26,759 nucleotides of DNA, taken from the IMG/VR virus record IMGVR_UViG_3300029085_000054. The stretch is one strand, 5' to 3'. The notes below the pieces were generated by a model. It made no database searches. It saw only the letters and a list, made by a program, of their open reading frames with translations, and was not told the DNA's origin. Both the position numbers and the translations under genes were made by a program. The DNA is from a virus (taxonomy: Duplodnaviria > Heunggongvirae > Uroviricota > Caudoviricetes). This document shows positions 2,808 to 23,206 of the stretch, in pieces; within the stretch, counting starts at the first letter, position 1, and each line of letters begins with the position of its first letter.

Positions 2808-3998
2808 TTAATTGCTGTTAACCGAGGTAACCAGACTTGCCAGGTATCTGGAAGTAATACGCTGGCGCAGGGTCAGGTTTTCGAGAGGAGGCACCGGGGT
2901 ATAGTCGTAGTCGATATACAGTTTTCCGGCCTTGAGGGTTTCCGCATCATTGGCTTCTTCACTGAACCAGCATGTGCCATCCACGATATAACCGTTGTTT
3001 TTCAGTTCGCGGAATTTGGCATTAATGCCATCAATGATGTCACGAATCAGCGTTGCGGTAATTGGCTTATCAATAGCCCACATGTGCGCCTCGGCCATCG
3101 TGTCGGCCAGTACCTGCGCGGTGCGGGTGTAGCTTTCAAAGAGGAACAGCGGGTCATCAGAGCAGGTACGGTTACCCCAGAAGCGGAAGCCGTCGCGGCG
3201 AATCAGCGTAGTGATGCCTGACTCGTTAAGCAGGTCAGCATCAGTGCCGGGCTTCTGCAAATCCCAGAATACAGAGGCGCTGATGCCGGTAACACCATTT
3301 ACCCCGACATTGGACAGCGTTTTATGCCAGCCCTGCTCCTGGTCGATTTTGGCACGCAGCCCCAGCGCACGGGCGGTGGCATACGCGGTGGCGGTGGTAC
3401 TGGTGACCGTATCCCATGCGAGGAAATCCGGCCAGATGACCATCAGCTCACGCTGGCTGAAATTCTGACGGTAGGCTTTTGCCTCGGAAATGGTTTTACA
3501 GCCCCATGCGCTAATATACCCGAATGCATTCAGTTCCTGGCATACCGATGCCAGTGCGACGGCAACCTCTTTGGTGTCCAGTCCCGGTACGCCGAGAATG
3601 CGTGGTTTAACGCCGGTAACCGACTCAGCCCCCATCAGGGCTTTCAGTCCGGTGTACTGACCGTTTTCGTCGGTGGTGCCGATGATATTGGAAACGGTCT
3701 GCGCGAGTTTCGTTTCTTCGTCTTCGCCGGTGCCGTCTTCCACGCGCACGACAACGGTGACCGGTTTTGACTGGTCAGCGATGGCCTGCAACGATGCCGC
3801 CAGCGTGCCTTTTTTACCGGCCTTTGCAATTGCACTCTGCACATTGGTAATCAGTACAGGTTTATTGAGGGGAAAGGTTTCCGCATCCGCATCGCTGGCC
3901 GTGCAGACCATGCCGACAATGGCAGTGGATACGGTGGAAATGACGCGGGTGCCGTCGTTAATCTCCAGCACCTGCACGCCGTGATGATAGTCACTCAT
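2808..3998 (-). CDS. FI: Contractile tail sheath protein gpFI (396 aa)
   Basis: ORF track 396 aa; sheath-like sequence; position upstream of FII; same length as P2 FI as I recall. Confidence 0.92.
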   Translation of the reverse strand: MSDYHHGVQVLEINDGTRVISTVSTAIVGMVCTASDADAETFPLNKPVLITNVQSAIAKAGKKGTLAASLQAIADQSKPVTVVVRVEDGTGEDEETKLAQTVSNIIGTTDENGQYTGLKALMGAESVTGVKPRILGVPGLDTKEVAVALASVCQELNAFGYISAWGCKTISEAKAYRQNFSQRELMVIWPDFLAWDTVTSTTATAYATARALGLRAKIDQEQGWHKTLSNVGVNGVTGISASVFWDLQKPGTDADLLNESGITTLIRRDGFRFWGNRTCSDDPLFLFESYTRTAQVLADTMAEAHMWAIDKPITATLIRDIIDGINAKFRELKNNGYIVDGTCWFSEEANDAETLKAGKLYIDYDYTPVPPLENLTLRQRITSRYLASLVTSVNSN

Positions 3999-16077: not shown

Positions 16078-16250
16078 TGTCAGGAGTCCTGAATAGTGAT
16101 TAGAGGAGTCACATGTCGGCATCAGTTTCCCGACGATACGCATCCTCCGCCATCAGTCCCGGATGGCTTATCACTGACACAACAGCACCTTAGCGAATCG
16201 CGGGTCGCGACTCAGTAGCCTTGCCGTGTATTCATCACGGCGAGGTATTT

Positions 16251-18023
16251 ATGACCATCACCACAGACACCACTCTTTTACACGACCCGCGTCGTCAGGC
16301 GGCGCTGCTGTACTGGCAGGGGTTTTCCGTGCCGCAGATTGCCGCCATGTTGCAGATGAAACGCCCGACGGTGCAGAGCTGGAAACAGCGCGACGGCTGG
16401 GACAGTGTTGCCCCCATCAGCCGTGTCGAAATGAGTCTGGAAGCGCGGCTGACCCAGCTCATCATCAAACCGCAGAAAACCGGCAGTGACTTCAAGGAAA
16501 TTGACCTGCTGGGACGCCAGATTGAACGACTGGCACGGGTCAACCGCTACAGCCAGACCGGCAACGAGGCAGACCTTAATCCGAACGTCGCTAACCGCAA
16601 CAAAGGCGGGCGTCGCAAACCGAAAAAGAATTTTTTCAGTGACGAGGCCATCGAAAAGCTGGAGCAGATTTTCTTTGAGCAGTCTTTCGACTATCAGTTG
16701 CACTGGTATCGCGCCGGGCTTGAGCACCGCATCCGCGATATCCTGAAATCCCGCCAGATTGGCGCGACGTTTTATTTTTCCCGCGAGGCGCTGCTGCGCG
16801 CCCTGAAAACCGGCCATAACCAGATTTTTCTGTCGGCCAGTAAAACGCAGGCGTATGTGTTCCGTGAATACATCATCGCCTTTGCCCGTCTGGTTGACGT
16901 TGACCTTACCGGTGACCCGATTGTCCTGGGCAATAACGGCGCAAAACTGATTTTTCTCGGCACCAACTCCAACACCGCACAAAGCCATAACGGCGACCTG
17001 TACGTCGATGAGATTTTCTGGATCCCGAATTTTCAGGTACTGCGTAAGGTGGCATCAGGTATGGCCTCACAGAGTCACCTGCGCTCGACCTATTTCTCCA
17101 CCCCGTCCACGCTGGCGCACGACGCCTACCCGTTCTGGTCGGGTGAACTGTTCAACCGGGGACGCGCCAGCGCCGCCGAACGCGTGGAAATCGACGTCAG
17201 TCATAACGCCCTTGCCGGAGGTCTTCTCTGTGCGGACGGCCAGTGGCGGCAGATTGTCACCATTGAGGATGCCCTGAAAGGTGGCTGCACGCTGTTCGAC
17301 ATTGAGCAGCTTAAACGCGAAAACAGCGCCGACGATTTTAAAAACCTGTTCATGTGTGAATTTGTTGACGACAAGGCGTCGGTGTTCCCGTTCGAGGAGC
17401 TGCAACGCTGCATGGTCGACACGCTGGAAGAATGGGAAGACTATGCGCCGTTTGCCGCCAATCCGTTCGGCTCACGTCCGGTATGGATTGGTTACGACCC
17501 GTCACACCGTGGCGACAGCGCCGGATGCGTGGTACTGGCACCGCCGGTGGTGGCCGGAGGCAAATTCAGAATACTTGAGCGTCACCAGTGGAAAGGCATG
17601 GACTTTGCCACCCAGGCTGAATCAATCCGAAAACTCACCGAAAAATATAACGTCGAATACATCGGTATTGATGCCACCGGCCTCGGTGTCGGCGTGTTCC
17701 AGCTCGTGCGCTCGTTCTATCCCGCCGCGCGCGATATCCGCTACACACCGGAAATGAAAACCGCAATGGTGCTCAAGGCAAAAGACGTTATTCGCCGTGG
17801 CTGTCTGGAATATGACGTCAGCGCCACCGACATCACCAGCTCGTTTATGGCTATCCGCAAGACCATGACCAGCAGCGGACGCAGCGCCACCTATGAGGCC
17901 AGCCGCAGCGAGGAAGCCAGCCATGCCGACCTCGCCTGGGCGACCATGCACGCCCTGTTAAATGAGCCACTCACCGCCGGTATCAGCACCCCGCTGACAT
18001 CCACCATTCTGGAGTTTTACTGA
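16251..18023 (+). CDS. P: Terminase large (ATPase) subunit gpP (590 aa)
   Basis: ATG at 16251 preceded by GAGG; product begins MTITTDTTLLHDPRRQAALLYWQGF; 590 aa as in P2; stop overlaps the Q start (TGATG). Confidence 0.92.
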   Translation: MTITTDTTLLHDPRRQAALLYWQGFSVPQIAAMLQMKRPTVQSWKQRDGWDSVAPISRVEMSLEARLTQLIIKPQKTGSDFKEIDLLGRQIERLARVNRYSQTGNEADLNPNVANRNKGGRRKPKKNFFSDEAIEKLEQIFFEQSFDYQLHWYRAGLEHRIRDILKSRQIGATFYFSREALLRALKTGHNQIFLSASKTQAYVFREYIIAFARLVDVDLTGDPIVLGNNGAKLIFLGTNSNTAQSHNGDLYVDEIFWIPNFQVLRKVASGMASQSHLRSTYFSTPSTLAHDAYPFWSGELFNRGRASAAERVEIDVSHNALAGGLLCADGQWRQIVTIEDALKGGCTLFDIEQLKRENSADDFKNLFMCEFVDDKASVFPFEELQRCMVDTLEEWEDYAPFAANPFGSRPVWIGYDPSHRGDSAGCVVLAPPVVAGGKFRILERHQWKGMDFATQAESIRKLTEKYNVEYIGIDATGLGVGVFQLVRSFYPAARDIRYTPEMKTAMVLKAKDVIRRGCLEYDVSATDITSSFMAIRKTMTSSGRSATYEASRSEEASHADLAWATMHALLNEPLTAGISTPLTSTILEFY

Positions 18024-19057
18024 TGAGCAAGAAAAAAGGGAAAACACCGCGACCTGCGGCAAAGACAATCACCGCCAGCGCCCCGAAAATGGAAGCATTC
18101 ACCTTTGGTGAGCCGGTGCCGGTACTCGACCGCCGTGACATTCTGGATTACGTCGAGTGCATCAGTAACGGCAGATGGTATGAGCCACCGGTCAGCTTTA
18201 CCGGTCTGGCAAAAAGCCTGCGTGCTGCCGTGCATCACAGCTCACCGATTTACGTTAAACGCAATATTCTGGCCTCGACATTTATCCCGCATCCGTGGCT
18301 TTCCCAGCAGGATTTCAGCCGCTTTGTGCTGGATTTTCTGGTGTTCGGTAATGCATTTCTGGAAAAGCGTTACAGCACCACCGGTAAGGTCATCAGACTG
18401 GAAACCTCACCGGCAAAATATACCCGCCGTGGTGTGGAAGAGGATGTTTACTGGTGGGTGCCGTCCTTCAACGAGCCGACAGCCTTCGCACCCGGCTCCG
18501 TGTTTCACCTGCTGGAGCCGGATATTAATCAGGAGCTGTACGGCCTGCCGGAATATCTCAGCGCCCTTAACTCTGCCTGGCTGAATGAGTCGGCCACGCT
18601 GTTCCGCCGCAAGTATTACGAAAACGGCGCTCATGCCGGATACATCATGTACGTCACTGATGCCGTGCAGGATCGCAACGATATCGAAATGCTTCGCGAA
18701 AACATGGTGAAGTCGAAAGGCCGCAATAACTTTAAAAATCTGTTTCTCTATGCCCCGCAGGGGAAAGCTGACGGCATTAAAATTATCCCGCTCAGTGAAG
18801 TGGCGACGAAGGACGATTTTTTTAATATCAAAAAAGCCAGCGCCGCTGACCTGCTGGACGCACACCGCATCCCCTTTCAGTTGATGGGCGGCAAGCCGGA
18901 GAACGTCGGGTCACTGGGTGATATTGAGAAAGTGGCAAAGGTCTTTGTCCGCAATGAGCTTATCCCGTTACAGGACAGGATTCGGGAAATAAACGGCTGG
19001 CTCGGTCAGGAGGTTATCCGCTTTAAAAACTACTCACTGGACACTGACAACGGCTGA
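18023..19057 (+). CDS. Q: Portal protein gpQ (344 aa)
   Basis: ORF track 344 aa; translationally coupled to P; lies about 170 nt from cos as in P2. Confidence 0.92.
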   Translation: MSKKKGKTPRPAAKTITASAPKMEAFTFGEPVPVLDRRDILDYVECISNGRWYEPPVSFTGLAKSLRAAVHHSSPIYVKRNILASTFIPHPWLSQQDFSRFVLDFLVFGNAFLEKRYSTTGKVIRLETSPAKYTRRGVEEDVYWWVPSFNEPTAFAPGSVFHLLEPDINQELYGLPEYLSALNSAWLNESATLFRRKYYENGAHAGYIMYVTDAVQDRNDIEMLRENMVKSKGRNNFKNLFLYAPQGKADGIKIIPLSEVATKDDFFNIKKASAADLLDAHRIPFQLMGGKPENVGSLGDIEKVAKVFVRNELIPLQDRIREINGWLGQEVIRFKNYSLDTDNG

Positions 19058-19061
19058 ACAT

Positions 19062-19084
19062 CGCCGCCTGCGGGCGGCTTTTTC
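19062..19084 (+). terminator. Rho-independent terminator after Q
   Basis: GCCGCC-TGCG-GGCGGC followed by TTTTT immediately after the Q stop codon. Confidence 0.7.
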
Positions 19085-19226
19085 ACACCCCGCCATCACG
19101 CCCTCACACGCTCATCACCGCACAAAAAATCCCGCAGACACACCAACGCCCTAGCAGGCCAAATAAACGCCTTCACGACGCGCTCAGACGCTGAAAAAAT
19201 AAAATCAGCACCACCGTCAGCGCGCA

Positions 19227-19245
19227 GTGCTTTCCCCGCCTCGCC
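19227..19245. other. cos: cos cohesive-end site (19 nt), matching the P2 cohesive end as recalled
   Basis: Plus strand GTGCTTTCCCCGCCTCGCC is the reverse complement of GGCGAGGCGGGGAAAGCAC, which I recall as the P2 5' cohesive end; the flanking sequence also matches my recollection of the P2 left end. Confidence 0.8.
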
Positions 19246-19404
19246 CGCCCGCTTCGTGGTGCTGTTTTAATGCAGTTGCATGAACACTCCAAGAGCGCGC
19301 CAGCACTGGCGGCGCTCACACGTAACGGGGAAGGAAAACGCATGCGATTCGATGCAGTAATGCATGCGGAGCTGAAAAATGGCAGAAAATACTGAAAAAA
19401 CGCA

Positions 19405-19433
19405 TAAAAAAACCGGCATTCAGGTTGCCGGTT
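19405..19433 (-). terminator. Rho-independent terminator acting on minus-strand transcripts entering from the hotspot
   Basis: Stem ACCGGCA / TGCCGGT with a 7-nt loop; on the minus strand it is followed by a 7-nt T run (plus-strand A run 19405..19411). Confidence 0.6.
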
Positions 19434-19570
19434 TGAGTCAGCTTCATTGTGGTTACTTGTCGCGCAATGCGCCAATAATACTGGTCAGGCAACAAGTGGC
19501 AACAATCAGCAAAAAAACCGTCGTCCACGGATTTTCATAAACGAGAGATAACATATTGATAAAGTTCCTT

Positions 19571-19702
19571 TTATTTGTTCATTCTGATGTGGTTTAAAAG
19601 GTGTTTGATAACGACCGTAAGCTCATCTTTACTGGCTTGCTCGACCATTTTTTCGGTGTAGCTTTCCACTTCGCGGGAACTCAGGTCGTTATTTGAGGCC
19701 AT
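19571..19702 (-). CDS. Hypothetical small protein (43 aa from ATG 19702; an alternative ATG at 19765 gives 64 aa); uncertain
   Basis: Minus-strand frame MASNNDLSSREVESYTEKMVEQASKDELTVVIKHLLNHIRMNK has protein-like composition; weak RBS-like AAGAGA upstream; diverges from the 143-aa gene. Confidence 0.25.
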   Translation of the reverse strand: MASNNDLSSREVESYTEKMVEQASKDELTVVIKHLLNHIRMNK

Positions 19703-19763
19703 TACAGTGAGTCTCTTTGCCCAGTCGGCATAAGGGTCTTTAATTGATGAAAGGGAATTATGC

Positions 19764-20195
19764 ATGTCCAAAAACCTCGAATTATTTAACCAGCAGACGG
19801 CTGAAATCTTTGCGGTGCTATGGGATAACTTTCCTGTACCACAAGTCATCACCTACAAAAAATTTAACGCCGCGTTACCTGATGATTACTTTGACCAACT
19901 TAACTCACCAGAAATGAAAGCACTGAATCAGTTGCGTAGTGTGGTTGATGGCACATTCACTTTCCTAAGCGAAAACGGCTATATTCTGTACGGAACAGAC
20001 CATCAGACCGGTTTTCATGATGTGCGCCTGACCGAGAAAGCACTCGCAGTGCTCAACAAAAAACCCGAAGCACTCGGTGGTAATGAAACAATGGGAGATA
20101 AGATTATCAGCGCGGTGAAGGACGGGACGCCTGGTGTTATTGCCGGTGCAGTAACAAACCTGCTTACCCTCGGAGTCAATCTAATGACCAGCTAA
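19764..20195 (+). CDS. Hypothetical hotspot cargo protein (143 aa) with a Gly-rich hydrophobic C-terminal segment; no family recognised
   Basis: Only long ORF in the AT-rich hotspot; ATG at 19764 preceded by AAGGGA at 19751..19756; C-terminus GTPGVIAGAVTNLLTLGVNLM is hydrophobic and contains a GxxxG motif. Confidence 0.6.
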   Translation: MSKNLELFNQQTAEIFAVLWDNFPVPQVITYKKFNAALPDDYFDQLNSPEMKALNQLRSVVDGTFTFLSENGYILYGTDHQTGFHDVRLTEKALAVLNKKPEALGGNETMGDKIISAVKDGTPGVIAGAVTNLLTLGVNLMTS

Positions 20196-20220
20196 CGCCT
20201 CGCTGCGCTCGTTGTTCAAC

Positions 20221-20259
20221 CCCGCCAGCCCTGAAAACAAGTTTCACGACTGGCGGCGT
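20221..20259. terminator. Imperfect long hairpin between the convergent 143-aa gene and the small minus-strand ORFs; possible bidirectional terminator
   Basis: CCGCCAG ... CTGGCGG inverted repeat with partial internal pairing (CTGAAAAC / GTTTCACG); no strong T run on either side. Confidence 0.35.
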
Positions 20260-20262
20260 TCT

Positions 20263-20469
20263 CTATCGTCTGCGTGGTGGTGGCATAACTCTGGATTGAC
20301 CGATATGGTTAAACCGCCCGTAATTATCCCGGACTATTTCGGCACACCCGACCAGCTCATCGGGCGTCAGATTTTCGTTGACCATAATCTGCTGCAAACG
20401 CTGAACAATAGCCATCAGCTTGATATTTTTAGTTTTATGGTGCGGTATCTCACCTGGTATTCTGTGCAT
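20263..20469 (-). CDS. Hypothetical small protein (68 aa); uncertain
   Basis: Manual translation from ATG 20469..20467: MHRIPGEIPHHKTKNIKLMAIVQRLQQIMVNENLTPDELVGCAEIVRDNYGRFNHIGQSRVMPPPRRR. Its start overlaps the stop of the upstream 45-aa ORF (TAATG). The opposite strand carries a competing TTG-start ORF. Confidence 0.35.
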   Translation of the reverse strand: MHRIPGEIPHHKTKNIKLMAIVQRLQQIMVNENLTPDELVGCAEIVRDNYGRFNHIGQSRVMPPPRRR

Positions 20470-20606
20470 TATCCAAGCCACCCGTTTTGCTGTGCACGCT
20501 CCATCTGTTCATCTGAATAATTCCATGCTCCATCCGTGGCAACCATTGCCCCGCCAGACATCCCCGTCTCTGGTTCATACATAACAGCAAGGCCGAGCTG
20601 ATGCAT
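20469..20606 (-). CDS. Hypothetical small protein (45 aa); uncertain
   Basis: Manual translation from ATG 20606..20604: MHQLGLAVMYEPETGMSGGAMVATDGAWNYSDEQMERAQQNGWLG, stop TAA 20471..20469. No clear Shine-Dalgarno; below the ORF-track length cutoff. Confidence 0.28.
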   Translation of the reverse strand: MHQLGLAVMYEPETGMSGGAMVATDGAWNYSDEQMERAQQNGWLG

Positions 20607-20654
20607 AATTTCATGATTAATTCTGAATACCAGGCCACGCTCACTAAGTTCTTT

Positions 20655-20921
20655 TCAGTTCACAATCTTATATGCTCCCGTATTAAGCAGCTCAATACTT
20701 AGCAAGACATAATCTTCCAGCCAGTCTGACAGGTCAGTAACATCTGTTATCCGGGCTTCAACCTTTCGCCCCGTAAACACACCCTGCACCCATTCATGCA
20801 AAATCAGTGTGTCCCCGCGCTCATAATTACGGTCATTTTTCCGAAACTCTGCACGTTTATGTCCTTCCAGCACAAGGTCGAAATATTTTGCGTGCAGCTT
20901 TACCTCGTGAATTTTTGCCAT
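20655..20921 (-). CDS. orf91-like small protein downstream of A (88 aa); possibly ASCH/PUA-like fold
   Basis: ATG 20921..20919 overlaps the A stop (TAATG) and is preceded by GGAG; product MAKIHEVKLHAKYFDLVLEGHKRAEFRKNDRNYERGDTLILHEW; occupies the P2 orf91 position. Confidence 0.75.
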   Translation of the reverse strand: MAKIHEVKLHAKYFDLVLEGHKRAEFRKNDRNYERGDTLILHEWVQGVFTGRKVEARITDVTDLSDWLEDYVLLSIELLNTGAYKIVN

Positions 20922-23206
20922 TATGTCCACTCCATTACTGTTGAGAATCCCGGCCACTCATCAGCGACCGGATACGTGAATTTTTTCCCGTCGTAATTTA
21001 CGGTTGCCCCACGCGCCAGCGCCTCAATCTCCCATCGCTGAGGCCTGATACCGTTCTGAGCAAGGTCAACGCGGATACGGGTGATTTGCATTCGCTCCGA
21101 CCGGGTCAGTCTGGCCGACGGTGCAATTTCATGCGGTTTTAACGGGCTTCCGTTTCTTTGCTGACGATTAGGTGTTCTCAGGCCGTGTTTTAATGCGCCC
21201 CTGAGCGCCCTCACAACCTCCGGGTCGTTCCATTCGATAACACCACCATCAACCAGATTAAGCACTGCTGCGGCGTGCTCAGAAGGTGTGGGAGCCGGTA
21301 ACGCAGTATCACCGCCGGTGAGCTTTCCACAGTTATTGACAGGACTCCGAGGCGCGGCGATGCCGCTTTTTAAAGTCAAAGGCTCAACGACCGGAACTTT
21401 CGGCACAATGCGCCAGTCCGTCGTTCTGGTGATATGAATATGACGCGCGCCGAGATGCGGCGCGTAAATGCCGACCACTCTCTCGACTTCTTCCTCGTAC
21501 TCGTTAACTTCATCCGACGGACTACGGGCAACCCTGACAGTCTGACAATCGCGCGGAACATTTGCCCCACCCTGCGCGCTGATATACAACGCAAAATCAC
21601 CACTGTCTGCGGCAGCGCGTGCAGCCTCGACGCGTTCGTCAAACTCATCAGCAATGCTGACGCCGCGAGGCAATTTGCGTAGTTCACGGTAAGCCCCCAT
21701 TGTCGGCAGACCAACCGTTTTAAATTGCGGGATGCGCCACGTTGACGCCCATGCGGTAACAGCCGCCGCAGTGTCTTTCAGCGGCCTGCCGGTATCGTTA
21801 TCGAGCTGACCATCCAGTGCATAGCCGTCGATGTTTTTTGAGATGTATTTCGCGATATATCCCGCAGCACCGCCCCGGTTAAGGTGTTTCGCCTGAAAAC
21901 GGTTTCGCGCGGCTCCTCTTTCGTCGCCATCTTCTTTGAGCGCATAGCGACGCATGGTTTCGATAATCTGGTTACGCTGACGTGGATTACAAAAAAGCAT
22001 CATATGCCAGTGCGGCGTTCCGTCGTGGTGTGGCTCGACGACACGCAAACCGTAGACCTGTAAATCATTATCCTTGAATGCCGTGCGCATCAGGCTCCAG
22101 ATACGGCAGAGATAACGCTGCGCATCCTTTGGATTAAATGCCTCATCGTTCCAGCCGTGATTTAGCTGGACGGTTTTACTTTCGCCTTTTCCGACCTGAC
22201 GTGTCGGGTGATACTTTGACGGCGCGGTCAGCGTGATAAACATCCCCACATCACCCTCTGCGGCGGCGTAACGCTCAATACCGGCAATGGTGTTCATCAG
22301 CTCCATCCGGCGAATTTCAGGATTAGAAATACTGCCCATCACCTTACTGATAAGGTCGATGCGCTCGCCGGTTTCCCTGTTTTCAAGGTCACACGATTTA
22401 AGAAATTCCAGATTTGCCTGGCGGCGTGCACGCACATCACGAATGGCATGTTTACTGGCATAAGGAGAACGGTCTTTATTCACCTCCCCGACAGCAATCA
22501 GTAACGCCTCATGCCAGCGCATACGCTGACCTTTAAGCTGATGAGTCCACCACTCATCGTTAAACAGACGGGCAATGGCAGAATATGCCTGCCTCGTGGT
22601 CATCTGTCCTTTACGGTATTTTTTCCAGTAGAGAGGGGAAATATTGAAAGCTCGTGCAGCGCCAGCAATATGACCATACAGATGCGCCTGAGCCTCATCC
22701 GTAAACAGCGATTCTTTCTCGCCATGTGCATCAACCCATGCATCGCAGAGTTCCTCATACATCATGAAAAGCTGCGATGAGATACGGGCGGCAAACTTTT
22801 TCAGTTCCTTGTCATTCATCCCCGGCAGACGCGCATAATGGTCACGCTCTGCCAGAAACAGCAACGACGCGTCGGTGTTCATTTCATGGCGCTGATTCAC
22901 GCGCTCAATGCGCGGCCATAAACGACGCTGAAAAGTGGATGTGAGGAAATAAAACCCGTGCACCGGGCTTTTATTGCGCCGGATGTAGTCATAGCGTGAG
23001 GTAAACAGCGAGCGCAAAAAGTAAGGCAGGCGGTTAATCGTGGATAAAACACCTTGCACCTGACGCATCTCGTCACGTGTAAGGGGTCTTTCGCGCCCGA
23101 CGGCCTCGCGTGGCGCGTTCCATGCATAAGCACCGGTAAACGCCTTACCGGTGCCTGCGGCAAATGCTGACGGAGGGACAAAACGCCCGGAGGCTTTAAC
23201 GGCCAT
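20921..23206 (-). CDS. A: Replication initiation (rolling-circle nicking) protein gpA (761 aa)
   Basis: From ATG 23206..23204 the product MAVKASGRFVPPSAFAAGTGK... is 761 aa and matches P2 gpA as I recall it along its length; the ORF-track start at 23248 is an upstream extension. Confidence 0.93.
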   Translation of the reverse strand: MAVKASGRFVPPSAFAAGTGKAFTGAYAWNAPREAVGRERPLTRDEMRQVQGVLSTINRLPYFLRSLFTSRYDYIRRNKSPVHGFYFLTSTFQRRLWPRIERVNQRHEMNTDASLLFLAERDHYARLPGMNDKELKKFAARISSQLFMMYEELCDAWVDAHGEKESLFTDEAQAHLYGHIAGAARAFNISPLYWKKYRKGQMTTRQAYSAIARLFNDEWWTHQLKGQRMRWHEALLIAVGEVNKDRSPYASKHAIRDVRARRQANLEFLKSCDLENRETGERIDLISKVMGSISNPEIRRMELMNTIAGIERYAAAEGDVGMFITLTAPSKYHPTRQVGKGESKTVQLNHGWNDEAFNPKDAQRYLCRIWSLMRTAFKDNDLQVYGLRVVEPHHDGTPHWHMMLFCNPRQRNQIIETMRRYALKEDGDERGAARNRFQAKHLNRGGAAGYIAKYISKNIDGYALDGQLDNDTGRPLKDTAAAVTAWASTWRIPQFKTVGLPTMGAYRELRKLPRGVSIADEFDERVEAARAAADSGDFALYISAQGGANVPRDCQTVRVARSPSDEVNEYEEEVERVVGIYAPHLGARHIHITRTTDWRIVPKVPVVEPLTLKSGIAAPRSPVNNCGKLTGGDTALPAPTPSEHAAAVLNLVDGGVIEWNDPEVVRALRGALKHGLRTPNRQQRNGSPLKPHEIAPSARLTRSERMQITRIRVDLAQNGIRPQRWEIEALARGATVNYDGKKFTYPVADEWPGFSTVMEWT

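What the first reader, a model, noticed from the sequence alone, without database searches (positions are those of the whole stretch)
19246..20654. Cargo at the P2 old/tin hotspot is short, AT-rich and unlike old or tin: candidate uncharacterised accessory or defence locus
In P2 the interval between cos and orf91/A carries old and tin, and it is the main variable hotspot reported for antiviral systems in P2-like phages. Here it is only about 1.4 kb and visibly more AT-rich than the flanking backbone (one 60-nt stretch at 19741..19800 counted by hand is about 37% GC). It contains a 143-aa ORF, a possible coupled pair of small ORFs on the other strand, a possible small divergent ORF and two hairpins. 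I recognise no family for any of the encoded products, so this is the part of the window most likely to encode something undescribed.
Basis: partly seen in the sequence, partly recalled or inferred. Interest (0 to 1): 0.8.

Follow-up and report, generated by a model that had tools for sequence, protein, structure and literature searches.

The report
Small accessory gene cassette beside P2 cos
The short stretch next to the packaging site of this P2-like prophage holds an uncharacterised, mobile mini-cassette (an acidic winged-helix protein and a small partner gene whose start codons overlap head-to-head) plus a broken backbone gene; it is not an old/tin-type defence system and its function is untested.

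Summary
The interval exists as described: it runs from cos (19228-19246) to orf91, is AT-rich on the left, contains a 143-aa ORF and two hairpins, and has no similarity to old or tin. It is a mosaic, not one cargo.

- **Right side (20196-20654): backbone.** It holds the 3' half of a 150-aa orf91-family gene (DUF3850+DUF7415) cut by a TGG->TGA nonsense mutation. A translationally coupled 68-aa gene and a junction hairpin found in 58 P2/186-like phages follow it.
- **Left side (19403-20195): a recurrent cassette.** It has a 143-aa acidic winged-helix protein (phrog_2266; no Pfam, NCBIfam or PADLOC hit). A 64-aa helical protein is divergent from it, with start codons overlapping in CATG. A 33-aa single-pass membrane peptide and a terminator come next.

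The 143-aa family has about 700 clusters at 50% identity. It sits at many positions in P2-, lambda- and Mu-like prophages, with GC below its flanks in 28 of 29 loci. About half of those loci have a divergent CATG-overlapping partner, drawn from at least two families with no detectable similarity.

The best reading is a mobile moron-type cassette whose two genes cannot be expressed together. Its function is unknown and untested. Interest is moderate.

The parts
19228..19246 (.). cos cohesive-end 19-mer (gtgctttccccgcctcgcc, reverse complement of the P2 cohesive end). It is bracketed by the inverted repeat 19199-19214 / 19256-19271.
   Evidence: Sequence read. Aligned to the annotated cosR end of P2. 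Inverted repeat found.
19247..19402 (.). cos-proximal TGCAT/GCATGC repeat region, a backbone packaging signal and not cargo.
   Evidence: Conserved in all P2/186-like loci aligned (A3, A11). The same motifs appear in the P4 cos-proximal sequences printed in Rousset Table S2.
19403..19434 (-). Intrinsic terminator (stem CCGGCA...TGCCGG plus a run of 7 T) ending the minus-strand 64-aa/33-aa transcription unit just before the cos repeats.
   Evidence: Stem and T-run are invariant in 6 phages. blastn matches in L001, L005-L008.
19453..19554 (-). 33-aa ORF encoding a predicted single-pass membrane peptide (MLSLVYENPWTTVFLLIVATCCLTSIIGALRDK). Its SD (AAAGGA) overlaps the stop codon of the 64-aa gene.
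   Evidence: Open, with the same start and stop, in Escherichia, Salmonella, Klebsiella and Yersinia loci; it carries a nonsense codon in Serratia. Kyte-Doolittle 19-residue maximum is 2.38. Annotated as gp06 in Klebsiella phage ST147-VIM1phi7.1. The opposite-strand ORF that PGAP calls here has stop codons in SW9 and the Klebsiella phage.
19571..19765 (-). 64-aa gene (phrog_2454) encoding a predicted three-helix protein with invariant NNDLSSRE and LLNHIR motifs.
   Evidence: Third-position substitution bias. AF2 pLDDT 74 with three helices. No informative fold or sequence match.
19763..19766 (.). CATG in which the ATG of the 143-aa gene (+) and the ATG of the 64-aa gene (-) overlap. Each gene's Shine-Dalgarno sequence lies in codons 2-5 of the other.
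   Evidence: Sequence. The geometry is conserved in 13 of 13 enterobacterial loci and in 11 of 22 distant loci, against at most 19 of 289 control ORFs.
19764..20195 (+). 143-aa gene (phrog_2266) encoding an acidic winged-helix protein with a C-terminal helical hairpin. It has the same orientation as old/tin in P2.
20203..20268 (.). Conserved ~60-nt junction element (GCTCGTTGTTCAACCCCGCCAGC...CTGGCGGCG) with hairpin arms 20218-20236 / 20242-20260. It lies between the convergent 143-aa and 68-aa genes and has no T-run.
   Evidence: The element recurs in 58 P2/186-like phage records, with two copies in SW9, PSP3 and SEN1 (alignment A7).
20263..20469 (-). 68-aa backbone gene (phrog_11386). Its start is coupled to the stop of the orf91-family gene (TAATG).
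   Evidence: Homologues occur in Wphi-type and 186-type prophages.
20469..20921 (-). orf91-family gene (DUF3850/ASCH + DUF7415, phrog_1812, 150 codons) inactivated by TGG->TGA at 20655-20657.
   Evidence: Pfam and PHROG hits split across the stop. PGAP annotates 'internal stop'. Three intact relatives have TGG at that codon.

Best explanation
The interval has three components.

1. **Backbone tail of the early operon (shown).** The A-orf91 operon ends with an orf91-family gene killed by a nonsense mutation, a coupled 68-aa gene, and a junction hairpin shared by many P2/186-like phages.

2. **A small mobile 'moron'-type accessory cassette (shown as anatomy).** It holds a 143-aa acidic winged-helix protein on the old/tin strand. 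On the early-operon strand it holds a 64-aa helical protein, then a 33-aa membrane peptide, then a terminator.

3. **cos repeats (shown).**

How it most likely works is inferred, not shown:
- The two start codons overlap in CATG, and each ribosome-binding site is the reverse complement of the other gene's first codons. The two messages must therefore be antisense to each other across both translation-initiation regions, and each promoter must lie inside or beyond the partner gene. This should make expression of the two sides mutually exclusive.
- Rightward lytic or early transcription (A, orf91, 68-aa gene) that passes the hairpin would run antisense through the 143-aa gene. It would then express the 64-aa and 33-aa products and stop at the terminator before cos.
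- When that operon is repressed in the lysogen, the 143-aa gene could be expressed, as old and tin are.
- The 143-aa protein has no enzymatic domain. It is uniformly acidic and lacks conserved basic residues in its recognition helix and wing. It therefore probably acts by binding a protein (host or phage) and not as a sequence-specific DNA binder.
- The partner may be a lytic-phase antagonist or a co-factor.
- The phenotype (exclusion, host modulation or counter-defence) is unknown.
For: **Mosaic structure**
- 19220-20260 matches Midge, FSLSP004 and Klebsiella phages. 20192-20654 matches Wphi-type phages at 95-97%.
- The nonsense mutation and the coupling are shown.

**Real genes**
- Substitutions are biased to third codon positions. 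The 143-aa product is 92-93% identical in protein at 79-86% DNA identity.
- The 64-aa family keeps its length across Enterobacterales.

**Moron-like behaviour of the 143-aa family**
- 694 representatives at 50% identity, all about 125-170 aa.
- The gene sits between T/U/X/D tail genes, antisense between tube and E, antisense between the lambda-type terminase and gpW/portal, and in Mu-like and Vibrio prophages.
- Its GC is below the flanks in 28 of 29 loci, by 6.8 points on average.
- It is present in only 94 of 5426 complete E. coli genomes. It lies beside varied other cargo, and SW9-type phages show deletion remnants.

**Overlapping-start architecture**
- It is found in 13 of 13 enterobacterial loci and 11 of 22 distant loci, against at most 6.6% of control ORFs.
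- The partners include at least two families with no detectable similarity: A2 (phrog_2454) and A10 (phrog_25421), with hhalign probability about 1%.

**Orientation and read-through**
- The 143-aa gene is oriented like old/tin.
- In phage 186 the annotated p95 transcript terminator t95b lies downstream of the same junction element, so that transcript passes through the element.

**Protein properties**
- AF2 predicts a winged helix with pLDDT 91.
- All 37 diverse members are acidic and none has a TM segment.
Against: - No convincing sigma-70 promoter was predicted for either gene of the pair in the window, the Klebsiella phage or two Pseudomonas loci. Independent expression of the 143-aa gene in lysogens is therefore unproven.
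- In six loci the family gene is co-oriented with, and tightly packed between, late tail genes. That implies late expression there and does not fit a purely lysogeny-expressed role.
- Whether the junction hairpin lets early transcription through in this phage is unknown.
- The 33-aa ORF shows no clear third-position bias and is interrupted in Serratia.
- There is no experimental datum on any of these proteins.
Confidence: 0.5

Rival explanations
1. This is a genuine new anti-phage defence or superinfection-exclusion system. The winged-helix protein would sense or block an incoming phage component. The 64-aa protein and the 33-aa membrane peptide would act as effector or modulator.
For: - The location is the validated gpA-gpQ defence hotspot (PMC9122126).
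- 19% of P2-like elements carry only unknown genes there, and most unknown loci tested in P4 were defensive (PMC13586616).
- The orientation matches old/tin.
- The cassette is AT-rich and patchily distributed.
- A predicted single-pass membrane peptide is present.
Against: - No PADLOC hit for any component, nor for 37 and 11 diverse family members.
- No enzymatic or effector domain is present.
- The 143-aa family is often a lone gene inside late operons.
- The cassette usually accompanies other defence cargo and does not replace it.
- It is not among the systems cloned by Rousset et al..
Confidence: 0.22
2. This is a counter-defence or host-takeover protein. The acidic winged-helix protein would bind and neutralise a host protein during lytic growth, for example an SMC/ABC-type ATPase defence, a nucleoid protein, or a sensor of structural proteins.
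For: - Every family member examined is acidic, and the DNA-reading elements carry no conserved basic residues.
- Several family members are translationally packed into late tail operons, or lie next to terminase/portal genes.
- The annotators of phage Midge reported an HHpred hint to T7 gp5.5/5.7.
Against: - In the window and in about half of the loci the gene is antisense to the surrounding lytic operon.
- No anti-defence library was available to test.
Confidence: 0.15
3. The 143-aa product is a DNA-binding transcription factor of MarR-like type that regulates the divergent 64/33-aa unit or neighbouring hotspot cargo.
For: - Winged-helix fold.
- Weak profile similarity to MarR, FabT, YjcQ and AspA.
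- Divergent gene arrangement.
- In Yersinia ruckeri and ETEC6 a larger gene (an AAA_13/SMC_N ATPase, a ComEC/MBL protein) follows it in the same direction.
Against: - Net charge is about -5 in all members, with no conserved basic residue in the recognition helix or wing.
- There is no intergenic operator region at all, because the start codons overlap.
- No Pfam HTH or MarR model reaches significance in 37 members.
- The neighbouring genes differ from locus to locus.
Confidence: 0.08
4. This is a type I toxin-antitoxin-like module. The 33-aa hydrophobic peptide would be a membrane toxin, with expression held down by antisense RNA from the opposite strand.
For: - A predicted single-pass hydrophobic peptide with its own SD.
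- Obligatory antisense overlap at the upstream translation-initiation region.
- A promoter-like site (10 of 12 matches) and a terminator close by.
Against: - No Rfam family matches.
- The peptide is absent from the non-enterobacterial modules and is interrupted in Serratia.
- Its substitutions show no coding bias.
- The antisense overlap concerns the 64-aa gene, not the peptide.
Confidence: 0.05

Closest known systems
P2 old/tin lysogenic-conversion cassette at the cos-proximal hotspot
   Same: - Same junction, between gpA/orf91 and cos/gpQ.
- The 143-aa gene is transcribed in the same direction as old and tin, convergent with the early operon.
- It is variable between related phages and AT-rich.
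   Different: - No sequence similarity.
- No ATPase/Toprim nuclease domain as in Old, and no counterpart of the 254-aa Tin protein.
- The products are 143, 64 and 33 aa with no enzymatic domain.
- It carries a divergent overlapping partner, which old/tin lack.
Phage morons in late operons (concept of Juhala/Hendrix; e.g. HK97 gp15, lambda lom/bor - from my own knowledge)
   Same: - A small accessory gene found at many different positions in otherwise conserved head and tail operons.
- Lower GC than the flanks in 28 of 29 loci.
- Present or absent among close relatives.
   Different: - A defining promoter/terminator pair could not be shown.
- The product is a soluble acidic winged-helix protein, not a membrane or outer-membrane protein.
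- About half of the copies carry a start-overlapping divergent partner.
MarR/PadR-type winged-helix regulators and protein-binding winged helices (kleisin Scc1-C/ScpA-C, kite ScpB/JetB)
   Different: - No significant sequence-family membership.
- Acidic, without basic DNA-reading residues.
- A conserved N-terminal NIxxFNxxTxxIFAxLYxxFPxP helix and a C-terminal GDxLxxAxKxG helical hairpin are specific to this family.
Type I toxin-antitoxin loci and other cis-antisense switches (hok/sok, tisB/istR - from my own knowledge)
   Same: - Obligatory antisense pairing across a translation-initiation region.
- A small hydrophobic peptide is present in the enterobacterial version.
   Different: - Both antisense partners are protein-coding mRNAs whose start codons share the palindrome CATG.
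- No Rfam match.
- The peptide is not part of the conserved core of the module.
T7 gp5.5 (H-NS binder), suggested for the Midge homologue by its annotators
   Same: A small acidic phage protein. The Midge record notes an HHpred probability of 91%.

Membership tests
OLD-family nuclease (P2 Old) | An ABC-type ATPase domain plus a Toprim nuclease domain in a protein of about 590 aa. | tested here: not met
   The largest ORF is 143 aa. tblastn of P2 Old against 19000-21000 gives E >= 0.03. No Pfam or PADLOC hit.
P2 Tin | Sequence similarity to the 254-aa Tin protein. | tested here: not met
   tblastn gives E >= 0.4.
Known or candidate anti-phage defence systems (PADLOC-DB v2) | A significant match of at least one component to a defence-system HMM. 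| tested here: not met
   No hits for the window ORFs, for 37 diverse members of the 143-aa family, or for 11 members of the second partner family. The only matches had E >= 0.015.
Phage moron | Base composition differs from the surrounding phage genes. | tested here: met
   The gene's GC is below its flanks in 28 of 29 loci, by 6.8 points on average. In the window it is 44% against 53-56%.
Phage moron | Present or absent between otherwise syntenic relatives, and inserted at different sites. | tested here: met
   At least six different insertion contexts. Present in 94 of 5426 E. coli genomes. Deletion remnant in SW9.
Phage moron | Its own promoter and terminator, and expression from the repressed prophage. 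| tested here: inconclusive
   No convincing sigma-70 promoter was predicted. The hairpin downstream of the 143-aa gene has no T-run. Expression cannot be tested with these tools.
MarR-type winged-helix transcription factor | Winged helix-turn-helix fold. | tested here: met
MarR-type winged-helix transcription factor | Significant match to the family HMM, and basic DNA-contacting residues in the recognition helix and wing. | tested here: not met
   No Pfam MarR or HTH hit in 37 members. The best PDB profile E-value is 0.044. All members are acidic, and only K92, K119 and position 127 are conserved as basic.
Type I toxin-antitoxin | A small hydrophobic toxin peptide. | tested here: met
   The 33-aa ORF has a Kyte-Doolittle 19-residue maximum of 2.38.
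Type I toxin-antitoxin | A dedicated antisense sRNA or known RNA family, and toxicity of the peptide. | tested here: inconclusive
   No Rfam match at E <= 1. A promoter-like site exists at 19502-19475. Toxicity cannot be tested here.
orf91 family (DUF3850/ASCH + DUF7415, phrog_1812) | Both domains in one reading frame of about 150 aa. | tested here: not met
   Both halves are present and 97% identical to intact relatives, but they are separated by TGA at 20655-20657. The gene is a pseudogene, or at best depends on read-through.
T7 gp5.5-like H-NS inhibitor | Detectable sequence or fold similarity to gp5.5. | tested here: not met

The most novel reading that the evidence does not exclude
The winged-helix gene and its start-overlapping divergent partner form a previously undescribed two-gene prophage switch. 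The acidic winged-helix protein, made in the lysogen, would bind and block a protein needed by incoming phages or sensed by host immunity. The partner would be made only when lytic transcription runs antisense through the winged-helix gene. It would then shut the first protein off at the RNA level and perhaps the protein level, so that the prophage's own lytic cycle is spared. Recruitment of at least two partner families with no detectable similarity into the same CATG geometry would make the architecture itself the selected feature.
Probability: 0.15. Interest if true: 0.75.

Novelty: new member of a known kind. Interest (0 to 1): 0.45.

Why it matters
The P2 cos-proximal hotspot is a proven source of new anti-phage systems. 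About a fifth of P2-like elements carry only unknown genes there (PMC13586616).

This work separates backbone from cargo in one such 'unknown-only' locus. The real cargo belongs to a large family with no Pfam model (about 700 clusters at 50% identity, phrog_2266) that moves between P2-, lambda- and Mu-like prophages across Proteobacteria.

The recurrent start-codon-overlapping divergent partner is a concrete, testable regulatory architecture. If it controls a lysogeny/lysis-specific activity, it would add a compact new type of prophage accessory module. It would also give a sequence signature (winged-helix gene plus CATG-overlapped small ORF) for finding more.

If nothing comes of it, the practical lessons still stand:
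- orf91 boundaries should be checked for nonsense mutations before hotspot content is called cargo.
- The junction hairpin and cos repeats should not be counted as cargo.

Tried and rejected
**Family and fold searches**
- Pfam, NCBIfam and PADLOC scans of all ORFs gave nothing significant for the 143-, 64-, 33- and 68-aa products. PHROGs gave only 'unknown function' families.
- PDB sequence-profile searches with A1, A2 and A4 gave only marginal MarR, YjcQ and AspA hits.

**RNA and specific comparisons**
- Rfam and tRNA scans were empty.
- Homology of the interval to Old, Tin, Tum and Orf97 was rejected.
- The T7 gp5.5 hint from the Midge annotation was not reproduced.
- Homology between the 64-aa family and the second partner family is not supported, with hhalign probability about 1%.
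- A transmembrane reading of the 143-aa C-terminal helix was rejected: the Kyte-Doolittle maximum is 1.45, and none of 37 relatives reaches 1.6.

**ORF calls and promoters**
- The PGAP-called + strand ORF at 19379-19540 and the ORFs at 19173-19475, 20212-20520 and 20450-20644 are judged spurious or out of frame.
- No Ogr-type TGT-N12-ACA site was found anywhere in the window.
- The P2 old promoter region is not conserved here.

**Searches that failed or found nothing**
- The search for related loci with the broad alignment failed for lack of a conserved stretch. A sub-alignment worked.
- Literature searches found no paper on these proteins. They are not among the sequences cloned by Rousset et al..
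Full report
**Where the window comes from and how it is laid out**

The interval and its flanks are 100% identical to a P2-like prophage in E. coli isolate 30602_1#109 (NZ_OZ038535.1). In window orientation the order is:
- terminase P (16221-18023, +) and portal Q (18023-19057, +);
- a strong terminator after Q (19063-19078);
- the cos 19-mer at 19228-19246;
- the interval under study;
- an orf91-family gene and the replication gene A on the minus strand.

In canonical P2 the same junction carries tin and old. They are transcribed from the cos side towards orf91.

**Checking the observation**

- GC is 42% over 19405-19763 and 46% over the 143-aa ORF. P/Q and the cos region are 55-56% and A is 54%. 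The hand-counted stretch 19741-19800 is 36.7%.
- The 143-aa ORF, a divergent 64-aa ORF and two hairpins (19410-19434 and 20218-20260) are present.
- Nothing in the interval resembles Old, Tin, 186 Tum or 186 Orf97.

The right-hand boundary is wrong.
- The frame downstream of the 'orf91 stop' continues as DUF7415 (E 6e-12). orf91 and that continuation match positions 1-89 and 91-150 of one 150-residue PHROG, phrog_1812.
- Three related phages have TGG where the window has TGA, at 20655-20657. PGAP flags the gene as a pseudogene with an internal stop.
- The next gene (68 aa, 20263-20469, phrog_11386) starts in the TAATG that ends the orf91-family frame, so the two are translationally coupled.
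- This whole segment (20192-20654) is 95-97% identical to Wphi-type phages and is about 50% GC. It is backbone, not cargo.
- The 64-aa ORF at 20450-20644 that the ORF list offers is out of frame. It corresponds to the 'gp92' annotated in the old Wphi sequence, which differs from three other phages by scattered single-base insertions.

**The real cassette (about 19403-20262)**

This segment recurs at the same junction in several phages and prophages:
- Escherichia phage Midge, Salmonella FSLSP004 and Klebsiella ST147-VIM1phi7.1;
- O157:H7 prophages and other E. coli prophages;
- more distantly, Serratia and Yersinia ruckeri P2-like prophages.

It has three coding parts.
- **143-aa gene (19764-20195, +; phrog_2266).** Substitutions against relatives fall overwhelmingly at third codon positions. 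The protein stays 92-93% identical at 79-86% DNA identity.
- **64-aa gene (19571-19765, -; phrog_2454).** It keeps its length across Enterobacterales and has invariant NNDLSSRE and LLNHIR motifs.
- **33-aa ORF (19453-19554, -).** It has its own Shine-Dalgarno sequence. It is open with the same start and stop in Escherichia, Salmonella, Klebsiella and Yersinia. It is interrupted in Serratia and shows no clear codon-position bias. It is predicted to be one membrane helix.

An invariant hairpin plus T7 terminator (19403-19434, -) follows, just before the TGCAT/GCATGC repeats of the cos region. The plus-strand ORF that PGAP calls across this spot has stop codons in SW9 and the Klebsiella phage and is probably not a gene.

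**What the 143-aa protein is**

- Close relatives are all enterobacterial. A profile search of 1.84 billion representatives found 694 clusters at E <= 0.001, nearly all 125-170 residues and aligned end to end.
- No Pfam, NCBIfam or PADLOC model matches the window protein or 37 diverse relatives. All relatives tested fall in phrog_2266, 'unknown function'.
- AlphaFold2 gives a confident model (pLDDT 91, pTM 0.87): a winged helix followed by a C-terminal helical hairpin.
- The T7 gp5.5 resemblance noted by the Midge annotators was not reproduced.
- All 37 diverse members are acidic (median pI 5.0, net charge about -5). Only three positions are conserved as basic, none in the recognition helix. 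No member has a hydrophobic stretch long enough for a membrane span.
- I therefore read it as a soluble, probably protein-binding, winged-helix protein. That is an inference.

**Where the family lives**

Genomic contexts of distant members are strikingly varied.
- Co-oriented and tightly packed between the tape-measure, gpU, gpX and gpD genes of P2-like tails, at three different junctions.
- Convergent with gpD.
- Antisense between the tail tube and the chaperone genes in Pseudomonas.
- Antisense between a lambda-type large terminase and gpW/portal in nine Pseudomonas prophages.
- In Mu-like prophages.
- Next to an antirepressor gene in Vibrio.

The gene's GC is lower than its flanks in 28 of 29 loci. 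In E. coli the cassette is present in 94 of 5426 complete genomes. It sits beside different larger cargo:
- an RT plus HTH locus in O157:H7 and Klebsiella;
- AAA ATPases, a GNAT and a ComEC-like protein in other E. coli;
- HicAB in Serratia, and an SMC_N/AAA_13 ATPase in Yersinia.

SW9-type phages keep the 64/33-aa unit and only a remnant of the 143-aa gene. This is the behaviour of a mobile accessory ('moron') gene, not of a fixed component of one defence system.

**The unusual feature**

In the window the ATG of the 143-aa gene and the ATG of the 64-aa gene overlap in the palindrome CATG (19763-19766). Each gene's Shine-Dalgarno sequence lies inside codons 2-5 of the other.

- The geometry is kept in all 13 enterobacterial loci examined, down to about 55% protein identity.
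- It also appears in 11 of 22 distant loci. A deliberately generous control on neighbouring ORFs gives at most 19 of 289.
- In Pseudomonas, Pectobacterium and one metagenomic P2-like prophage the partner belongs to a different family (72-83 aa, phrog_25421). It shows no detectable relationship to the 64-aa family, with hhalign probability about 1%. A Bilophila locus has yet another partner.
- Because there is no intergenic space, each promoter must lie within or beyond the other gene. The two mRNAs must be complementary across both translation-initiation regions.

**How it most likely works (inferred)**

- The minus-strand unit has the orientation of the early A-orf91 operon and ends at a terminator just before cos.
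- In phage 186 the same ~60-nt junction element lies upstream of the annotated p95 terminator t95b. Rightward transcripts there evidently pass through it.
- I therefore propose that lytic transcription reads through the hairpin and runs antisense across the 143-aa gene. It would then express the 64-aa and 33-aa products.
- With the early operon repressed in the lysogen, the 143-aa gene (oriented like old/tin) could be expressed. The overlap would make the two states mutually exclusive.
- What the proteins then do is unknown. The winged-helix protein probably binds a protein target. The partner could be a lytic-phase antagonist or co-factor.

Weak points of this model:
- No convincing sigma-70 promoter was predicted for either gene in four loci.
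- Six family members are plainly part of late tail operons.
- There are no experimental data.

**Comparison with what is known**

- The hotspot itself is well described (PMC9122126; PMC13586616).
- The O157-type versions of these very proteins are listed as 'hypothetical' next to RVT_1 in Table S5 of Rousset et al.. They were not among the cloned systems, and no paper mentions their accessions.
- The locus fails the membership tests for Old, Tin, any PADLOC system, MarR-family regulators (by sequence and charge) and T7 gp5.5.
- It meets two of three moron criteria.
- It resembles cis-antisense switches only in logic.

**Verdict**

The finding is real but smaller and more ordinary than proposed. 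It consists of a pseudogenised backbone gene, a coupled backbone ORF, a shared junction hairpin, and one small uncharacterised mobile cassette. The cassette's family is large and unannotated. Its start-overlapping divergent architecture is a genuine curiosity worth an experiment. Nothing here shows defence activity. I score interest at 0.45 and class it as a new member of a known kind: hotspot/moron accessory cargo of unknown function.

Noticed in passing
window 20655-20657 (gene 20469-20921, minus strand): The orf91-family gene (DUF3850/ASCH + DUF7415) carries a single TGG->TGA change where three related phages have Trp. Near-cognate read-through of UGA by tRNA-Trp would restore the wild-type protein at a low level.
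   Followed up: partly
window 20203-20268; also L007 807-843 and 1212-1248, L010 3845-3895, L003 3456-3514: A conserved ~60-nt element (GCTCGTTGTTCAACCCCGCCAGC...CTGGCGGCG, hairpin without a T-run) recurs at gene-cassette junctions in 58 P2/186-like phage records. SW9, PSP3 and SEN1 have two copies. It may be a shared recombination joint for cassette exchange, or an RNA element. It is usually unannotated.
   Followed up: partly
window 19247-19402: TGCAT/GCATGC repeats between cos and the terminator are conserved across P2/186-like phages. They also appear in the P4 cos-proximal sequences printed in Rousset Table S2. They are presumably the shared packaging signal.
   Followed up: partly
window 19199-19214 and 19256-19271: A 16-nt inverted repeat (88% complementary) brackets the cos 19-mer.
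   Followed up: no
window 19502-19475 (minus strand); L008 3782-3755: The best promoter-like site in the region (TTGCCA-16-TATTAT, 10 of 12 matches) lies inside the 33-aa ORF and points at the terminator about 40 nt downstream. A similar site exists in the Klebsiella phage. It could produce an RNA of about 65 nt, or it may only reflect coding constraint.
   Followed up: no
L003 (Wphi NC_005056) 3662-3907 versus window 20440-20700: Wphi's separate 'orf91' and 'gp92' annotations seem to result from several single-base insertions, relative to three other phages that have one 150-codon frame. These are probably errors in the old sequence.
   Followed up: partly
whole window: The pattern TGT-N12-ACA, which I recall as the Ogr-dependent late-promoter dyad of P2, has 0 exact matches on either strand against 6.6 expected by chance. 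This is unexplained.
   Followed up: no
L024 5752-6347; L025 2289-4511; L020 5616-6707: There are further insertion points and neighbours of the cassette. HicAB lies between cos and the portal gene in Serratia. An SMC_N/AAA_13 ATPase lies 53 nt downstream of, and co-oriented with, the winged-helix gene in Yersinia ruckeri. A ComEC/MBL-like gene lies downstream in E. coli ETEC6.
   Followed up: no
L002 (NC_070904.1, labelled Peduovirus P2): At this locus the record carries the Wphi-type cargo (a cytosine methylase and two further genes) and not old/tin. Its 'P2' label does not mean canonical P2 content at the hotspot.
   Followed up: no
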